This document shows, piece by piece, positions 2,425-13,992 of a stretch of 15,825 bases of DNA (the stretch's first letter is position 1; each line of letters begins with the position of its first letter). The position numbers were made by a program, and so were the translations under genes. A model generated the notes under the pieces. The model was not told the DNA's origin. It saw only the letters and a list, made by a program, of their open reading frames with translations, and made no database searches. The stretch lies in IMG/VR virus record IMGVR_UViG_2565956713_000002; one strand, given 5' to 3'. This DNA comes from a virus. Its lineage: Duplodnaviria; Heunggongvirae; Uroviricota; Caudoviricetes.

Positions 2425-3108
2425 ATGAAAAATATTAATGCCCTTAACGGGCAGGGATTCGCTCACCCTGTTGCCAGTAAAAGCGATATTAGCGTGCAGC
2501 TTAAACAGCTTCCTGCCGTCGAATTTCACGGGCAACGCGTGGTGACGTTCGCAATGATTGATACCGCGCACCAGCGACCTAAAGACACGGCTAAAAAGAC
2601 TTTTCAGCGTAATCGCACTCGCTTCATTGATGGTGAGGACTTTTTTATTGTCGGCGCGTCAGAGGTCGAATGGGGAGGGGCTGGATATTTAGACAGGGGC
2701 ATTAAACGCCCTGGCAAAAAAATGAACAGTCCGATACGTGGCCGCGTAACACTGATTACGGAATCAGGCTATCTGCTGCTGACCAAACCGTTTAACGATG
2801 ATTTGGCCTGGCAGGTACAGCGCCAGCTCGTGAAAACTTATTTCCGTTGCCCGGAGTTTGTCACTTTCCATCATGTGGATCTGCCGTCGCTCGAAGAACT
2901 GATCGCCATGCCGGTTACTGATGCGCAAAACGCCGTGACTCGTGCGGACAAGCATTCTAAGCAGTTTCATGGCTCACAGGGCAGTAATGGAATGAATCTC
3001 CGCAAGAAGGAACTCAAAGTTCTGCGTCCGGCGGTACGGCTGGTAGATGCGATGGGGCAGATTGATTTCGATAAATATGAGTGGGAGGCGGCACATGATC
3101 GCGCATAA
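2425..3108 (+). CDS. ORF6N/KilA-N-like domain phage regulatory protein
   Basis: N-terminal segment VEFHGQRVVTFAMIDTAHQRPKDTAKKTFQRNRTRFIDGEDFFIV resembles the ORF6N DNA-binding domain consensus. C-terminal half unrecognised. Confidence 0.5.
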   Translation: MKNINALNGQGFAHPVASKSDISVQLKQLPAVEFHGQRVVTFAMIDTAHQRPKDTAKKTFQRNRTRFIDGEDFFIVGASEVEWGGAGYLDRGIKRPGKKMNSPIRGRVTLITESGYLLLTKPFNDDLAWQVQRQLVKTYFRCPEFVTFHHVDLPSLEELIAMPVTDAQNAVTRADKHSKQFHGSQGSNGMNLRKKELKVLRPAVRLVDAMGQIDFDKYEWEAAHDRA

Positions 3109-3112
3109 AACA

Positions 3113-3132
3113 AAGGCGACCGGGGGCGGTCG
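3113..3132. terminator. GC-rich hairpin GGCGACCG-GGGG-CGGTCGCC between convergent genes; T-rich tract on the minus-strand side
   Basis: Inverted repeat read directly. On the minus strand it is followed by TTTGTTTTAT, so it could terminate the RHH transcript; it is weak as a + strand terminator. Confidence 0.35.
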
Positions 3133-3225
3133 CCAATGGGAAAACACTAAACATAAGCCCGAACATCATAGTGATTTGCTGGCTGGTGGGCAATGTGATC
3201 AGTGTGCTGGCTTGCTGGTGGGCTA

Positions 3226-3417
3226 TCAACCTTTTGGTTCTATACCGCGCCGCTTTAGTTCTGCCCTGGCTAATTCTTTAAACCAGTTACCAAGGGTTAG
3301 ACCGTCAGAAGTTGCCGCCTCATTTACTTGTTGGCGTAGCTCTTTACTGATTCTGATTTGGAAGGTTGGAGACCATCCCTCACCGCGTGGCGATTTATCG
3401 CGCTTTAATGTTGACAT
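3226..3417 (-). CDS. Ribbon-helix-helix (Arc/CopG-like) DNA-binding protein, putative repressor
   Basis: FQIRISKELRQQVNEAATSDGLTLGNWFKELARAELKRRG fits the beta-strand then two helices RHH pattern. Its start codon overlaps the -35 of the divergent promoter. Confidence 0.6.
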   Translation of the reverse strand: MSTLKRDKSPRGEGWSPTFQIRISKELRQQVNEAATSDGLTLGNWFKELARAELKRRGIEPKG

Positions 3418-3458
3418 GTACGTACGTAACTCCTATTATCATTGCTGTTACGTACGTA
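3411..3458 (+). promoter_or_regulatory. Consensus sigma70 promoter TTGACA-17-TATTAT with two identical palindromic operators TACGTACGTA (3419..3428 and 3449..3458)
   Basis: TTGACA at 3411..3416, 17-nt spacer, TATTAT at 3434..3439. Two perfect 10-bp palindromes sit 30 bp centre to centre, one in the spacer and one just downstream of the -10. Confidence 0.6.
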
Positions 3459-3556
3459 CAATATCAGTAGGTACAGTAAAAAGCAAAGCCCCGCAAGTGT
3501 CGTTACCACTCGCAGGGCTTCTAACCACCAACGATAACGAGAGTATCGAGGTAGCT

Positions 3557-3760
3557 ATGTTAAATCATACCACACACCCGCAAGGGCGGGACTCGCACAA
3601 CCTGAATAAATATATCTGGCGTTTTATCGCCCTGAGCACGGCACAACCGCGCGTGATTCACATCGTGGCCACCAGCGAACAGGAAGCACGCCAGCAATCC
3701 CCGGCTGGCTGCGTGATGGTATTCGCCGCCCGTATTCGTCAGGGGGTGTTCCATGCCTGA
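3557..3760 (+). CDS. Icd-like small protein (host cell division inhibitor family of P4-like elements)
   Basis: 67-aa ORF downstream of the operator-controlled promoter. Sequence YIWRFIALSTAQPR...VMVFAARI resembles Icd-like proteins as recalled from memory, not searched. Confidence 0.45.
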   Translation: MLNHTTHPQGRDSHNLNKYIWRFIALSTAQPRVIHIVATSEQEARQQSPAGCVMVFAARIRQGVFHA

Positions 3761-4073
3761 CATGACCAATTACCAGTACCTGATTAATCCGCATTTTAAC
3801 TGTGAGCATGATATTGCTAAAAAGGTTTATTCCGCTGCGGATGGGGCTACTGACAATATATCAATGGGTATTGCGTCAATTGGTAGCCTGATGTGGCATG
3901 CGTCAGAAAATGAGGACTATGACGAAAAGGCTATGCGCATTGATATGGGTAATATCGGTTTGTTACTGGCAATGCTTGGGCAGTTTGATATTTCGTTACG
4001 GTGCACCATTGAAAATGCCACAGATGCATTAAATGCCATAAAGAAAGCGAATACTGATTCAAATCGGGGATAA
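3753..4073 (+). CDS. Hypothetical protein (106 aa)
   Basis: ORF with AGGGGG 6 nt upstream of the ATG; start overlaps the Icd-like stop. No recognisable motif. Confidence 0.5.
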   Translation: MPDMTNYQYLINPHFNCEHDIAKKVYSAADGATDNISMGIASIGSLMWHASENEDYDEKAMRIDMGNIGLLLAMLGQFDISLRCTIENATDALNAIKKANTDSNRG

Positions 4074-12057: not shown

Positions 12058-13702
12058 GTACGCAGAAGGCGTAAAAAACGGCAAAATTACGGCCTGTAAA
12101 CGACTGAAACAGGCCGTTAAACGGTATTTTTCTGACCTTGAAAACTCCCTTTACACGTTCGATCCGGAGGTCGTGGAGCGGTTTATTGCCTTTTCCCGGG
12201 TGTGTCCGCACGTAAAAGGCGCAATGCGCGGTAGTCCCATTGAACTGGAGCCGTGGCAGCAGTTCGCCTTTGCCTGCATCCTGGGCTTTAAGGTTAAGGC
12301 CACCGGACGGCGCAAATACACCAGCGCATTCATTGAAGTACCGCGAAAAAATGCCAAATCCACGGTCGCCGCTATCCTGGCTAACTGGTTTCTGGTTATG
12401 GAAAACGGGCAGCAGGATATTTACACCGCCGCCGTGAGTCGTGATCAGGCGCGGATCGTGTTTGATGATGCGCGTCAGATGTGCCTTTTATCCCGACCGT
12501 TACGAAAGCGGGTAAATATTCAGGCACACAAGGTGATACACCCGAAAACCAACAGCCTGTTAAAGCCACTGGCAGCAAAAGCGGCAACCATTGAAGGTAC
12601 AAATCCGAGTCTTGCCATTGTGGATGAATATCACCTGCACCCTGACAACGGGGTTTATTCCGCACTTGAGCTGGGGATGGGGGCGCGTCCGGAGGGGCTG
12701 TTATTTGCCATCACCACATCGGGGAGCAACGTTGTTTCAGCCTGTAAACAACACTATGACTATTGCTGTCAGATACTGGATGGTGAAGAGGTGAACGAAT
12801 CCATGTTCGTTCTGATTTATGAGCTGGATGATGAAAGCGAGGTTGACGATCCGGCGATGTGGATAAAGGCGAATCCCAATATCGATGTTTCCGTAGATCG
12901 TGAAAAACTGGCCTCAACCATCCAGAAAGCGCGGGGTATTCCGTCGCAGTGGGTGGAAATGCTCACCAAGCGATTCAATATCTGGTGTCAGGGGGCTACG
13001 CCGTGGATGGGTAACGGTGCATGGGCTGAGTGCGCCGGAACGTTCACGGAGGAAGATTTACACGGTCAGGAGTGTTACGCGGGGCTTGATTTATCATCCA
13101 CAAGCGACATCTCCAGCGTGTGCTATGCCTTTCCGGTTGGTAAAACCATTATGCTGGTTTCTCGTCACTATCTGCCGGAATTTCAGCTACAGAACCCCGC
13201 CAATAAAAACCGCGCCATCTATCGCCAGTGGGCAAAGGCGGGCTGGATACGCACAACACCGGGTGACTGCATTGATTATGACCGTATCCGTGATGACATC
13301 ATGGCGGATGCAGAGAATTTCAATATCAGGCTGGTGGGCTTTGATACGTGGAACGCCACGCACCTGAGAACGCAGTTACAGGGGGCAGGCTTTGAGGTGG
13401 AGCCGTTCCCGCAAACCTACCTTCGTTTCAGTCCGGCGGCGAAATCGTTCGAGGTTTTTGTTAACCGGAAGGTGATTGTGCATCGTGGTGATCCGGTGCT
13501 GGCCTGGTCAATGAGTAATGTTGTGATGCAGAGTGACGCGAACGCCAATATCAAGCCGAACAAGAAAAAATCATCCAACAAGATAGACCCGAGCGTTGCG
13601 GCGCTGATGGCGTTTGGCACATTCCAGGCTGAGCATGAGGAATTTGCATTTGATATGAGCGACAGCCAGAAAGAGCGACTAGCGGCATTTGATGGGGTAT
13701 GA
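12041..13702 (+). CDS. Terminase large subunit (ATPase plus nuclease)
   Basis: 553-codon ORF with Walker A-like VPRKNAKST, Walker B-like LAIVDEYHL and C-terminal nuclease-like acidic motifs (GLDLSSTSD, VGFDTWN). The ORF begins with TTG at 12041, overlapping terS by 17 nt; the start is uncertain. Confidence 0.85.
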   Translation: MTAWHEYAEGVKNGKITACKRLKQAVKRYFSDLENSLYTFDPEVVERFIAFSRVCPHVKGAMRGSPIELEPWQQFAFACILGFKVKATGRRKYTSAFIEVPRKNAKSTVAAILANWFLVMENGQQDIYTAAVSRDQARIVFDDARQMCLLSRPLRKRVNIQAHKVIHPKTNSLLKPLAAKAATIEGTNPSLAIVDEYHLHPDNGVYSALELGMGARPEGLLFAITTSGSNVVSACKQHYDYCCQILDGEEVNESMFVLIYELDDESEVDDPAMWIKANPNIDVSVDREKLASTIQKARGIPSQWVEMLTKRFNIWCQGATPWMGNGAWAECAGTFTEEDLHGQECYAGLDLSSTSDISSVCYAFPVGKTIMLVSRHYLPEFQLQNPANKNRAIYRQWAKAGWIRTTPGDCIDYDRIRDDIMADAENFNIRLVGFDTWNATHLRTQLQGAGFEVEPFPQTYLRFSPAAKSFEVFVNRKVIVHRGDPVLAWSMSNVVMQSDANANIKPNKKKSSNKIDPSVAALMAFGTFQAEHEEFAFDMSDSQKERLAAFDGV

Positions 13703-13992
13703 CGAGAATGACTGAAACCGATCTACTAAAAATAATTCGCTGCGTTACCGGAGTCTGCCAGGCAACAGGCAAACCGGAGGCCAAGCAGCCGGATACCGTC
13801 ACCGCTGAAAATTACGCGCGTGTGGTGGCTAAGGTGATGCGCCGTGACGGTATTGAGCTTAACGGCGTGGATATGCGCAACATACGAACCAGAGTCCTTG
13901 AGTTGCTGGCATACCGTCGCCGTTCTCAACAACGGAGGGAGAGCGCGAAAAATACTTACCAGTGGAAGAAGCCGGAACGGTTGCGGCGGTAG
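13699..13992 (+). CDS. Hypothetical protein (97 aa), last gene of the element
   Basis: ORF whose start overlaps the terL stop (ATGA). Basic C-terminus; no recognisable motif. Confidence 0.45.
   Translation: MTRMTETDLLKIIRCVTGVCQATGKPEAKQPDTVTAENYARVVAKVMRRDGIELNGVDMRNIRTRVLELLAYRRRSQQRRESAKNTYQWKKPERLRR

What the first reader, a model, noticed from the sequence alone, without database searches (positions are those of the whole stretch)
3411..3458. Consensus sigma70 promoter gated by twin TACGTACGTA palindromes, divergent from an RHH repressor gene
TTGACA-17-TATTAT is a near-ideal promoter firing toward the Icd-like gene and pri-rep operon. One perfect 10-bp palindrome lies in the spacer and an identical one just downstream of the -10, 30 bp apart (three helical turns), which is a classic cooperative operator layout. 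The RHH gene starts inside the -35 on the opposite strand, so it is the obvious candidate repressor. This looks like the satellite's immunity/derepression switch.
Basis: partly seen in the sequence, partly recalled or inferred. Interest (0 to 1): 0.5.

Follow-up and report, generated by a model that had tools for sequence, protein, structure and literature searches.

The report
Repressor-gated early promoter of phage satellite
A very strong promoter that drives the replication genes of a capsid-forming phage satellite in E. coli is flanked by two binding sites for a tiny repressor-like protein encoded right next to it, and comparison with about 80 related elements suggests this overlooked protein may be the repressor that Gram-negative satellites were thought to lack.

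Summary
TTGACA-17-TATTAT (3411-3439) is the only 11/12 sigma-70 match in the window. TACGTACGTA occurs exactly twice (3419-3428, 3449-3458). The start codon of a 63-aa minus-strand gene overlaps the -35.

The window is a capsid-forming PICI (cf-PICI) between gcd and hpt of E. coli DAX4.

The 63-aa protein has a ribbon-helix-helix (RHH) fold; its best structural matches are P22 Arc.

About 80 related loci across Enterobacterales and Pasteurella keep the same layout. The operator core changes together with the two predicted DNA-reading beta-strand residues. TFQIRI goes with GTACGTAC in 51 of 54 loci, and six other strand types go with other cores. This is strong in-silico evidence that the RHH protein binds these sites.

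The conserved unit is the 8-bp core GTACGTAC, 33-35 bp apart, not the 10-mer at 30 bp.

A conserved minus-strand extended -10 overlapping site 2 is probably the RHH gene's own promoter, which implies autoregulation.

The published prototype EcCIEDL933 carries an unannotated homologue.

A conserved minus-strand hairpin in the Icd leader points to an ~80-nt antisense RNA as a second control layer.

Whether this module is the helper-responsive switch is untested; published work credits AlpA.

The parts
3411..3416 (+). -35 hexamer TTGACA of the rightward early promoter (P_right). It overlaps the RHH start codon on the other strand.
   Evidence: TTGAC was found at this position in 57 of 59 distinct related loci. 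Ser2 of the RHH protein is always encoded TCA, so the hexamer is kept.
3418..3425 (.). Operator site 1 (O1). The core is the palindrome GTACGTAC; the extended arm is 3417-3430. It lies in the P_right spacer and abuts the -35.
   Evidence: The core is conserved in same-class loci and replaced in loci with other beta-strands.
3434..3439 (+). -10 hexamer TATTAT of P_right. The inferred transcription start is near 3446.
   Evidence: Relatives have a TAnnnT 17-18 nt after the -35. The start site is inferred, not measured.
3452..3459 (.). Operator site 2 (O2). The core is GTACGTAC; the extended arm is 3447-3460. It sits about +6 to +14 of P_right and overlaps the -10/start region of the RHH promoter.
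3458..3466 (-). Probable promoter of the RHH gene (P_RHH). It is an extended -10, TGaTATTGT on the minus strand. The inferred start is near 3451.
   Evidence: TGnTAnnnT sits at a fixed offset (+45 to +48 from the -35) in 37 of 57 distinct loci, against 2.6% of random 30-nt windows. It is present in all operator classes sampled. 'TA' is at least 90% conserved two bases after the O2 core.
3226..3417 (-). Gene for a 63-aa ribbon-helix-helix protein. The predicted beta-strand is P17-T-F-Q-I-R-I23, with helices at 25-37 and 42-56. The Shine-Dalgarno AGGAG is at 3434->3430.
   Evidence: The RHH frame has the highest synonymous fraction: 0.67, against 0.50 for the opposite-strand shadow frame and 0.14 or less for the other frames.
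3115..3134 (-). Intrinsic terminator-like hairpin with a T-run, downstream of the RHH gene.
3467..3474 (.). Possible weak third site, GTAGGTAC (one mismatch to the core).
   Evidence: A comparable extra copy is clear in L036 and partial in L007/L011, and absent in many others. Weak evidence.
3474..3558 (-). Candidate ~80-nt antisense RNA to the Icd-like leader, Shine-Dalgarno and start codon. It has a 5' stem-loop, then a 15-bp hairpin (3521->3485) and a U-run (3484->3475).
   Evidence: see the full report. The RNA itself has not been observed.
3564..3572 (-). Candidate extended -10 (TGgTATGAT) for the antisense RNA.
   Evidence: Read directly from the sequence. A TAnnnT, often preceded by TG, is at the same offset from CT(A/G)ACC in most loci. 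This cannot be separated from coding constraint.
3557..3760 (+). First gene of the P_right operon (Icd-like, 67 aa). The Shine-Dalgarno GAGG is at 3548-3551. It is followed by a hypothetical gene, a DUF4222 gene, the DUF927 primase-helicase gene and an SSB gene.

Best explanation
The region 3411-3466 is a compact divergent control region of a capsid-forming PICI.

What is there:
- A near-consensus sigma-70 promoter (P_right) fires rightwards into the Icd-like / DUF4222 / DUF927 primase-helicase / SSB operon.
- The 63-aa ribbon-helix-helix protein encoded leftwards binds, as a dimer per site, two 8-bp palindromic cores (GTACGTAC at 3418-3425 and 3452-3459).

How it works:
- O1 fills the P_right spacer next to the -35. 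O2 lies just after the P_right start. Occupancy should therefore exclude or block RNA polymerase at P_right.
- O2 also overlaps the extended -10 and start of the RHH gene's own promoter, so the protein limits its own synthesis.
- The result is a self-adjusting repressor that keeps the replication operon silent in the integrated state.

Shown here in silico: the sequence elements, their conservation, the RHH fold, and the co-variation of operator core with beta-strand residues 18 and 20.

Inferred: binding itself, repression, the transcription start sites, autoregulation, and the stoichiometry.
For: 1. Promoter quality and uniqueness: 11/12, the only such site in the window.

2. The layout is conserved in about 80 loci from Escherichia, Salmonella-type proteins, Morganella, Yersinia, Pectobacterium, Brenneria, Pantoea, Erwinia, Xenorhabdus, Serratia, one Advenella MAG and a Pasteurella element.

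3. Specificity co-variation between beta-strand and operator core:
- TFQIRI with GTACGTAC: 51 of 54 loci, 37 of them with two copies. None of 9 loci with other strands has it. Background is 5 copies in 451 kb.
- QF(R/K)MRI with GGTGGCCACC or GTGGTCACC (L002, L003, L047, L048).
- IFSVRL with TATGGACC / GGTCCATA (L008).
- PFHMRI with GTGCACAC / GTGTACAC (L036, L037).
- AFQIRI with GTGCGTAC / GTGTGTAC-type cores (L073, L074, L084).
- QYQMRL with GGTATATACC / GGTAATTACC (L085).
TFQIRI proteins keep the core down to about 50% overall identity to the window protein. Proteins of 59-67% identity with another strand do not.

4. Fold. The profile search of PDB sequences has Arc as best hit and aligns PtFqiR to Arc PQFNLRW. 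The AlphaFold model has an extended N-terminus plus two helices. Every top Foldseek hit is an RHH protein: Arc, PutA, CopA, AmrZ, CopG, ParG.

5. A minus-strand TGnTAnnnT sits at a fixed offset overlapping O2 in 37 of 57 loci, against 2.6% background.

6. The RHH reading frame is the one under purifying selection.

7. No other GTACGTAC lies in the window, so the regulon is local.
Against: - Nothing here is experimental.
- The window protein is below the curated cut-offs of every family it hits: Pfam HicB 18.2 against 21, NCBIfam YlcI/YnfO 20.7 against 30.
- The structure model is a monomer of moderate confidence (pLDDT 73).
- Operators and gene are adjacent and inherited together, and only about seven classes exist. 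The co-variation therefore rests on few independent events.
- 14 of 54 same-class loci have one exact core and 3 have none.
- Core spacing of 33-35 bp is not a whole number of helical turns.
- The RHH Shine-Dalgarno in this window is 12 nt from the ATG, which is long.
- Published studies of E. coli PICIs and of EcCIEDL933 found induction to depend on AlpA and report no repressor.
Confidence: 0.72

Rival explanations
1. Same binding mechanism, but the biological role is that of a helper-responsive master switch. The RHH protein would be the global repressor of the satellite, and a helper-phage product (or AlpA, or the ORF6N protein) would inactivate or displace it to start replication.
For: - A consensus promoter needs no activator, so control must be negative.
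- The layout parallels the divergent repressor/replication arrangement of Gram-positive PICIs. [quoted passage not shown]
- The allelic operator classes look like immunity groups.
- The prototype EcCIEDL933 carries the module.
Against: - alpA mutation alone abolishes induction of EcCICFT073 and EcCIEDL933, and AlpA over-expression induces EcCICFT073.
- No phage partner is known.
- A 63-aa RHH protein has little surface beyond its DNA-binding fold for an anti-repressor to grip.
- Nothing here links it to a helper.
Confidence: 0.3
2. Same binding mechanism, but the role is homeostatic copy-number or dosage control of the replication operon, as in small plasmids. An autoregulated RHH repressor plus a counter-transcript would damp expression of the initiator genes, while induction is decided elsewhere (AlpA).
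For: - The operon controlled is the replication module.
- The repressor is probably autoregulated.
- A conserved minus-strand structured RNA overlaps the first gene's ribosome-binding site.
- The pairing of an RHH repressor (CopG) with antisense RNAII controlling repB is established for pMV158 (PMC4485353 and PMC2724298).
Against: - The element is integrated and does not need copy control until induced.
- Unlike copG-repB, the RHH gene is divergent, not co-transcribed with the replication genes.
- The antisense RNA has not been observed.
Confidence: 0.3
3. The inverted repeat works as a nucleic-acid hairpin: a DNA cruciform, or an RNA stem in the RHH 5' leader that hides its ribosome-binding site. 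It would not be a pair of protein sites.
For: The arms are 14 nt and perfectly complementary with a 16-nt loop. Arm complementarity is kept in relatives.
Against: - Within a protein class the core sequence itself is invariant rather than merely complementary.
- Most cores are self-palindromic, which a hairpin does not require.
- Complementarity outside the core decays.
- 14 of 54 loci keep one site only.
- With the inferred start sites, neither transcript contains both arms.
Confidence: 0.04
4. The sites are bound by a different protein (AlpA, the ORF6N-domain protein, the Icd-like protein or a host factor), and the RHH protein has another job, for example as an orphan antitoxin.
For: - Automatic names for homologues are 'HicB family antitoxin'.
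- PHROG families of the Icd-like protein are labelled 'transcriptional repressor'.
Against: - Core changes track the RHH beta-strand, not the neighbours. L004, L002 and L082 have different left-arm genes but obey the rule.
- There is no HicA or other toxin gene. The RHH gene is monocistronic with its own terminator.
- The protein lacks the HicB N-terminal domain (63 aa).
Confidence: 0.06

Closest known systems
Phage P22 immunity I region (mnt / Pmnt-Pant / arc / sar / ant)
   Same: - Small RHH repressors act on a compact region.
- One repressor gene (mnt) is divergent from the promoter it represses.
- The operator lies inside the promoter.
- An antisense RNA is directed at the first regulated gene's ribosome-binding site. 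The description of immI as two protein repressors plus antisense sar controlling ant is in PMC2629481.
- Arc is the best sequence and structure match of the window protein.
   Different: - Sequence similarity is marginal (E 0.11).
- The regulated operon here is a replication module headed by an Icd-like gene, not an antirepressor.
- There is a single repressor gene, not two.
- There are two separated 8-bp palindromes rather than one 17-21-bp operator (the operator sizes are from my own knowledge).
- The host element is a satellite, not a phage.
pMV158 CopG + antisense RNAII control of repB
   Same: An RHH transcriptional repressor occludes the promoter of a replication-initiator operon. It is combined with a short counter-transcript that blocks translation (PMC4485353 and PMC2724298).
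   Different: - copG is the first gene of the operon it represses; here the RHH gene is divergent.
- It is a Gram-positive rolling-circle plasmid, whereas this is an integrated enterobacterial satellite.
- The antisense RNA here is only predicted.
Stl / Rpr master repressors of Gram-positive PICIs (SaPIs)
   Same: The repressor gene is transcribed divergently from the excision/replication operon of a phage-inducible island. This is the functional slot that published work leaves open for Gram-negative PICIs (PMC6092414).
   Different: - Stl-type repressors are much larger helix-turn-helix proteins that helper proteins bind (own knowledge).
- int lies on the repressor side and strand in Gram-positive PICIs; here int is co-oriented with the replication operon.
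- De-repression by a helper has not been shown here.
Phage P1 immI (c4 RNA - icd - ant)
   Same: A structured small RNA lies immediately upstream of, and acts on, an icd-type first gene (own knowledge). The first gene here matches NCBIfam phage_ICD_like.
   Different: - C4 is made from the sense transcript; the conserved structure here is on the antisense strand.
- The Rfam C4 model does not match.
MetJ and its metbox (AGACGTCT)
   Same: One RHH dimer per 8-bp palindrome with a central ACGT (own knowledge). This is the basis for proposing one dimer per GTACGTAC core.
   Different: Metboxes are tandem and adjacent, and binding needs a co-repressor. Here the cores are 34 bp apart and no ligand is implied.

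Membership tests
Ribbon-helix-helix (MetJ/Arc) superfamily of DNA-binding proteins | A beta-strand followed by two helices in about 45 residues | tested here: met
   The AlphaFold model has an extended segment at 17-23 and helices at 25-37 and 42-56, with pLDDT 81-88 over the helices. All leading Foldseek PDB hits are RHH proteins, with Arc at prob 1.0 and TM-target 0.85.
Ribbon-helix-helix (MetJ/Arc) superfamily of DNA-binding proteins | Significant match to a curated RHH family model | tested here: inconclusive
   Pfam HicB (C-terminal RHH region) scores 18.2 bits against a cut-off of 21. PHROG Arc-like repressor gives E 1.9e-4. NCBIfam YlcI_YnfO_N scores 20.7 against 30. Close homologues carry a precomputed PF05534 hit. 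The PDB profile search has Arc as best hit at E 0.11.
Ribbon-helix-helix (MetJ/Arc) superfamily of DNA-binding proteins | Dimer whose paired beta-strands read the major groove of a (pseudo)palindromic site | not testable with these tools
   Only monomers can be modelled here. Indirect support: the cores are palindromic and change with beta-strand residues 18 and 20, which align to the first and third strand positions of Arc's PQFNLRW (Q and N; numbered Q9 and N11 from my own knowledge).
P22 immI-type control region | RHH repressor gene divergent from the repressed promoter, with the operator inside the promoter | tested here: met
P22 immI-type control region | The regulated gene is an antirepressor (ant) | tested here: not met
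   The operon is Icd-like, hypothetical, DUF4222, DUF927 primase-helicase, SSB. The only antirepressor-like gene (ORF6N, 2425-3108) lies on the other side and is not downstream of this promoter.
P22 immI-type control region | Antisense RNA against the ribosome-binding site of the first regulated gene | tested here: inconclusive
   A conserved minus-strand hairpin shows co-variation and G-U asymmetry, and the predicted 85-nt RNA folds with z -6.8. The transcript has not been observed, and its promoter is inferred.
pMV158-type CopG/RNAII replication control | The repressor gene is co-transcribed with the replication initiator gene | tested here: not met
   The RHH gene is on the opposite strand.
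HicAB toxin-antitoxin system | Adjacent HicA toxin gene, and a HicB N-terminal domain | tested here: not met
   The neighbours are ORF6N and Icd-like, with no HicA hit. The protein is 63 aa with the RHH part only, and the gene has its own terminator.
YlcI/YnfO family (NF041551) | Score above the curated cut-off | tested here: not met
   20.7 bits against a cut-off of 30. True YlcI/YnfO genes occupy the same slot in other E. coli islands (L082, L083). The L004 homologue, which is 73% identical to the window protein, is itself annotated YlcI/YnfO.
PICI master repressor (Stl/Rpr-like role) | De-repression by a helper-phage protein; loss of the repressor causes helper-independent induction | not testable with these tools
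   Needs genetics. The literature gives AlpA as the inducer and no repressor for Gram-negative islands.
Capsid-forming PICI (host element) | int, alpA, pri-rep plus own capsid, protease, portal, connector, HNH, terS and terL, about 15 kb, no tail genes | tested here: met
   The annotation of the source locus and Pfam hits show these genes and no tail gene. The gene order is the same as in the EDL933 element, which the cf-PICI paper describes.

The most novel reading that the evidence does not exclude
This small RHH protein and its allelic relatives would be the missing master repressor of Gram-negative PICIs and cf-PICIs. That set includes the unannotated TTG-start gene in the prototype EcCIEDL933 and the YlcI/YnfO-type genes in the same slot of other islands. 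Helper phages would induce the islands by neutralising it. The seven or more beta-strand/operator classes would define mutually non-cross-reacting 'immunity' groups of satellites. A cis-antisense RNA over the first gene's ribosome-binding site would provide a second lock.
Probability: 0.3. Interest if true: 0.75.

Novelty: new member of a known kind. Interest (0 to 1): 0.55.

Why it matters
How helper phages switch on Gram-negative PICIs is an open question. [quoted passage not shown] Later work suggests AlpA may be mainly an excisionase and asks how the helper activates the early genes (PMC10803314).

A consensus promoter in front of the replication operon cannot need an activator. A cognate repressor sitting on it gives a concrete, testable control point. 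It is present, though unannotated, in the experimentally tractable prototype EcCIEDL933.

The family also offers a natural series of matched beta-strand/operator pairs. This is useful for studying RHH-DNA recognition and as a source of small orthogonal repressor/operator parts.

If the protein is only a local autoregulated damper, the finding is an ordinary, well-formed example of an RHH operator.

Tried and rejected
1. Known RNA families. Rfam at gathering thresholds over the whole window, and at E up to 10 over 3100-3900, gave nothing credible and no C4/CI-type RNA.

2. The leader hairpin as a plus-strand terminator or attenuator. Rejected: there is no U-run on the plus strand, and the structure is much better on the minus strand.

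3. The hairpin as nothing more than a minus-strand intrinsic terminator. The T-run is missing in the Pectobacterium/Brenneria loci although the hairpin is kept. Termination therefore cannot be its only conserved property.

4. Hairpin-loop pairing with the Icd ribosome-binding region (repeat I4). It is not conserved in L002, so I dropped it.

5. A canonical -35/-10 promoter for the RHH gene. None reaches 9/12 on the minus strand between 3418 and 3500. The conserved extended -10 was found only by comparison.

6. Toxin-antitoxin reading: no toxin gene.

7. Phage origin or cross-talk. tblastn against 50,697 phage records gave 5 weak hits. Two are short unannotated fragments, one (AGRM01000003.1) is a 582-kb Salmonella genome scaffold, and one is itself a 15-kb satellite-like record.

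8. Literature. I found no paper on this protein, on a GTACGTAC operator in this context, or on the leader RNA sequence.

9. Codon-position test of the RHH frame against the opposite-strand ORF. Both frames share third positions, so I used synonymous/non-synonymous counts and stop-codon occurrence instead.

Full report
**Where the window comes from**

The window is 100% identical to the chromosome of E. coli DAX4. It is a 15-kb island between gcd and hpt. Its gene order is:
- int, a DUF6387 gene, alpA and an ORF6N-domain gene on the plus strand;
- a 63-aa gene on the minus strand;
- then, on the plus strand, Icd-like, a hypothetical gene, DUF4222, DUF927 primase-helicase, SSB, major capsid, prohead protease, portal, connector, HNH, small and large terminase.

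There are no tail genes. This is the architecture of a capsid-forming PICI (cf-PICI), as described for EcCIEDL933 (bioRxiv 10.1101/2022.09.08.507074).

**The observation**

- TTGACA (3411-3416), a 17-nt spacer and TATTAT (3434-3439) match 11 of 12 consensus positions. All other promoter-like sites on either strand of the window reach only 9/12.
- TACGTACGTA occurs at 3419-3428 and 3449-3458 and nowhere else, even with one mismatch. Shuffles expect 0.21 matches.
- The two copies are the inner parts of a perfect 14-nt inverted repeat (3417-3430 / 3447-3460) whose centre falls in the -10.
- The ATG of the minus-strand ORF (3417-3415) overlaps the -35 by two bases.

**The protein**

Family searches give only sub-threshold hits, but they agree with one another:
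- Pfam HicB (its RHH region), 18.2 bits against a cut-off of 21;
- PHROG 'Arc-like repressor', E 1.9e-4;
- NCBIfam YlcI/YnfO, 20.7 bits against 30.

A profile of 18 homologues has P22 Arc as its best PDB sequence match. It aligns P-t-F-q-i-R with Arc P-Q-F-N-L-R-W. The AlphaFold model (pLDDT 73) has an extended N-terminal segment and two helices. Its leading Foldseek hits are all ribbon-helix-helix proteins, headed by Arc.

The RHH frame is the one under purifying selection. Among changed codons, 67% are synonymous. The figure is 50% for the opposite-strand shadow frame, which carries stop codons in 6 of 20 loci, and 14% or less for the other frames.

There is no toxin gene nearby. The gene has its own terminator-like hairpin at 3134-3115.

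**Comparative evidence**

I collected three distant E. coli relatives (L002-L004). I added 77 loci from one genome per species and two records from the phage collection.

Almost all share one layout:
1. The regulator's start codon (ATG, GTG or TTG) overlaps TTGACA on the other strand.
2. An inverted-repeat arm follows immediately.
3. A TAnnnT lies 17-18 nt after the -35.
4. A second arm lies about 30 bp further on.
5. The motif TA-n-CA follows.
6. Last comes a GC-rich hairpin, CT(A/G)ACCA, a Shine-Dalgarno sequence and the first gene of the rightward operon.

The key result is that the operator core changes with the beta-strand.

| Beta-strand | Operator core | Loci |
|---|---|---|
| SPTFQIRI | GTACGTAC | 51 of 54 loci, 37 with two copies 33-35 bp apart |
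| SPQF(R/K)MRI | GGTGGCCACC / GTGGTCACC | L002, L003, L047, L048 |
| SPIFSVRL | TATGGACC / GGTCCATA | L008 |
| SPPFHMRI | GTGCACAC / GTGTACAC | L036, L037 |
| (S/A)PAFQIRI | GTGCGTAC / GTGTGTAC-type | L073, L074, L084 |
| SPQYQMRL | GGTATATACC / GGTAATTACC | L085 (Pasteurella element) |

- The 9 loci with other beta-strands have no GTACGTAC. The flanking 451 kb holds only 5 copies.
- The varying residues are positions 18 and 20, and R22 is invariant. These three align to the three alternate strand positions of Arc, which are its base-contacting residues (my own knowledge of the Arc-operator structure).
- TFQIRI proteins keep the core down to about 50% overall identity to the window protein. 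Proteins of 59-67% identity with another strand do not. This argues for recognition rather than simple co-inheritance.
- The number of independent switches is small, which is the main limit of this evidence.

- The conserved unit is the 8-bp palindrome, not the 10-mer. In the window the exact cores are 3418-3425 and 3452-3459, 34 bp apart. The 10-mers arise because this allele continues GTACGTAC with GT.
- A spacing of 33-35 bp is about 3.2 helical turns, and a quarter of same-class loci keep only one exact core. 'Three turns, cooperative' is therefore not a conserved property.

**The regulator's own promoter**

No canonical promoter is detectable on the minus strand. However, TGnTAnnnT, an extended -10, sits at a fixed offset in 37 of 57 distinct loci, against 2.6% of random windows. 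It occurs in every operator class sampled.

In the window it is TGaTATTGT at 3466->3458, and its last two bases lie inside the O2 core. I infer a leftward start near 3451 and a rightward start near 3446.

On this reading O1 occupies the spacer of the rightward promoter. O2 lies at about +6 to +14 of that promoter and over the -10/start region of the leftward one. Bound protein should therefore shut both promoters. The result is repression of the replication operon together with negative autoregulation.

**A second layer, found in passing**

The hairpin at 3485-3521 marks the point where homology to about 1,400 E. coli genomes begins. It is conserved with many compensatory changes. The structure belongs to the minus strand:
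- It is more stable on the minus strand in 45 of 46 distinct sequences.
- It has 101 G-U pairs among 625 pairs on the minus strand, against 13 among 518 on the plus strand.
- RNAalifold gives 14 pairs and -25.7 kcal/mol for the minus strand, against 8 pairs and -5.7 for the plus strand.

In the window it is followed by a U-run. An extended -10 (TGgTATGAT, 3572->3564) would start an RNA at about 3557. The 85-nt stretch 3558->3474 folds into two stem-loops at -40.1 kcal/mol, z -6.8. It is complementary to the Shine-Dalgarno and start codon of the Icd-like gene.

This looks like a counter-transcript, but it has not been observed. Rfam has no matching family.

**Comparison with known systems**

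- The closest analogue in layout is the P22 immI region: RHH repressors Mnt and Arc, the antisense sar RNA, and an operator inside the promoter (PMC2629481). There the regulated gene is an antirepressor and the sequence similarity is marginal.
- The closest analogue in logic is pMV158, where the RHH repressor CopG and antisense RNAII jointly limit the replication initiator (PMC4485353 and PMC2724298). There the repressor is co-transcribed with its target.
- In biological role, the open slot is the Stl/Rpr master repressor of Gram-positive PICIs.
- For Gram-negative islands the literature says a global repressor is 'unclear' and names AlpA as activator (PMC6092414). Later work suggests AlpA may act mainly in excision (PMC10803314).
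- I found no paper describing this protein or operator.

**The prototype carries it**

An 801-bp segment containing the QFRMRI-type allele, its GTGGTCACCT sites and the hairpin is 100% identical in E. coli O157:H7 EDL933. It lies in a single island there, with int, alpA, DUF927, SSB, capsid, protease, portal, connectors, HNH, terS and terL between roxA and phoQ. This fits the published EcCIEDL933.

In EDL933 the RHH gene starts with TTG and is not annotated. PGAP instead calls a 248-aa plus-strand ORF across it.

Other E. coli islands carry a YlcI/YnfO-family gene in the same slot. These have their own repeats around a TTGAC(A/G) promoter. The region therefore behaves like a mosaic immunity-type module.

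**Verdict**

The feature is real. By comparative evidence it is very probably a repressor-operator-promoter unit with autoregulation (confidence about 0.7).

Two readings of its biological role remain open and about equally likely (each about 0.3). It could be the satellite's helper-responsive switch, or it could be a homeostatic damper of the replication operon.

It is a new member of a known kind of control circuit. Its value lies in the context: it is a candidate for the missing repressor of Gram-negative PICIs, it is present in the prototype, and it can be tested directly.

Noticed in passing
window 3474-3558 (minus strand); hairpin 3485-3521; CTAACCA 3521-3527: A conserved minus-strand RNA hairpin lies in the leader of the Icd-like gene, with co-variation and a strong G-U strand asymmetry. 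It is probably the 3' part of an ~80-nt antisense RNA covering the Shine-Dalgarno and start codon. It has no Rfam family. The U-run after it is absent in the Pectobacterium/Brenneria loci.
   Followed up: partly
window 3497 vs 3557: PGAP starts the Icd-like CDS at a GTG (3497) inside the hairpin. The ATG at 3557, with GAGG five bases upstream, is what relatives conserve (Shine-Dalgarno plus ATG at the same offset from CT(A/G)ACC). The annotated start is probably wrong.
   Followed up: partly
L086 (E. coli EDL933, NZ_CP008957.1) about 13699-13890; L003 2498-2689: The prototype cf-PICI of EDL933 carries a 63-aa RHH homologue with a TTG start that is not annotated. A 248-aa opposite-strand 'hypothetical protein' (WP_001304194.1) is called across it and is probably at least partly a shadow ORF.
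   Followed up: partly
L082 2574-3075; L083 2691-3069: Other E. coli islands have a YlcI/YnfO-family gene in the same divergent slot. Each has its own repeats around a TTGAC(A/G) promoter: GTAAG..CTTAC in L082, and GTGTTTAACAC twice in L083. The same hairpin and Icd module follows. The slot behaves as an exchangeable immunity-type cassette.
   Followed up: partly
window 3178-3194 and 3210-3226: A direct repeat, GCTGGCTGGTGGGCAAT / GCTTGCTGGTGGGCTAT, lies just downstream of the RHH stop codon. The second copy recurs next to a different regulator in L082 (2561-2577). It may be the left recombination boundary of the cassette.
   Followed up: no
window 3047-3760 (+): A 237-aa open frame runs antisense through the whole RHH gene and in frame into the Icd-like gene. 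It shares third codon positions with the RHH frame and is a shadow ORF, not a gene.
   Followed up: yes
L085 (OR544139.1, 'Pasteurella phage Pmp8', 15.3 kb); L084 (PQ569648.1, Klebsiella phage P12620-1): Pmp8 is deposited as a phage but has the satellite layout in the region examined: integrase remnant, primase, excisionase/AlpA-like regulator and large terminase. It carries the same RHH/operator/hairpin module. A 106-kb Klebsiella phage record also contains the module.
   Followed up: partly
window 2425-3108 (+): An ORF6N-domain protein matches several PHROG 'anti-repressor' families. It is encoded just upstream of the RHH gene in the alpA arm. It could be aimed at a helper-phage repressor or at the island's own RHH protein.
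   Followed up: no
window 3532-3548: A small stem (CGATA..TATCG) ends at the first base of the Icd-like Shine-Dalgarno. In many relatives the Shine-Dalgarno sits in the loop of an equivalent CGTTAA..TTAACG stem. This is the kind of target that loop-loop antisense pairing uses.
   Followed up: no
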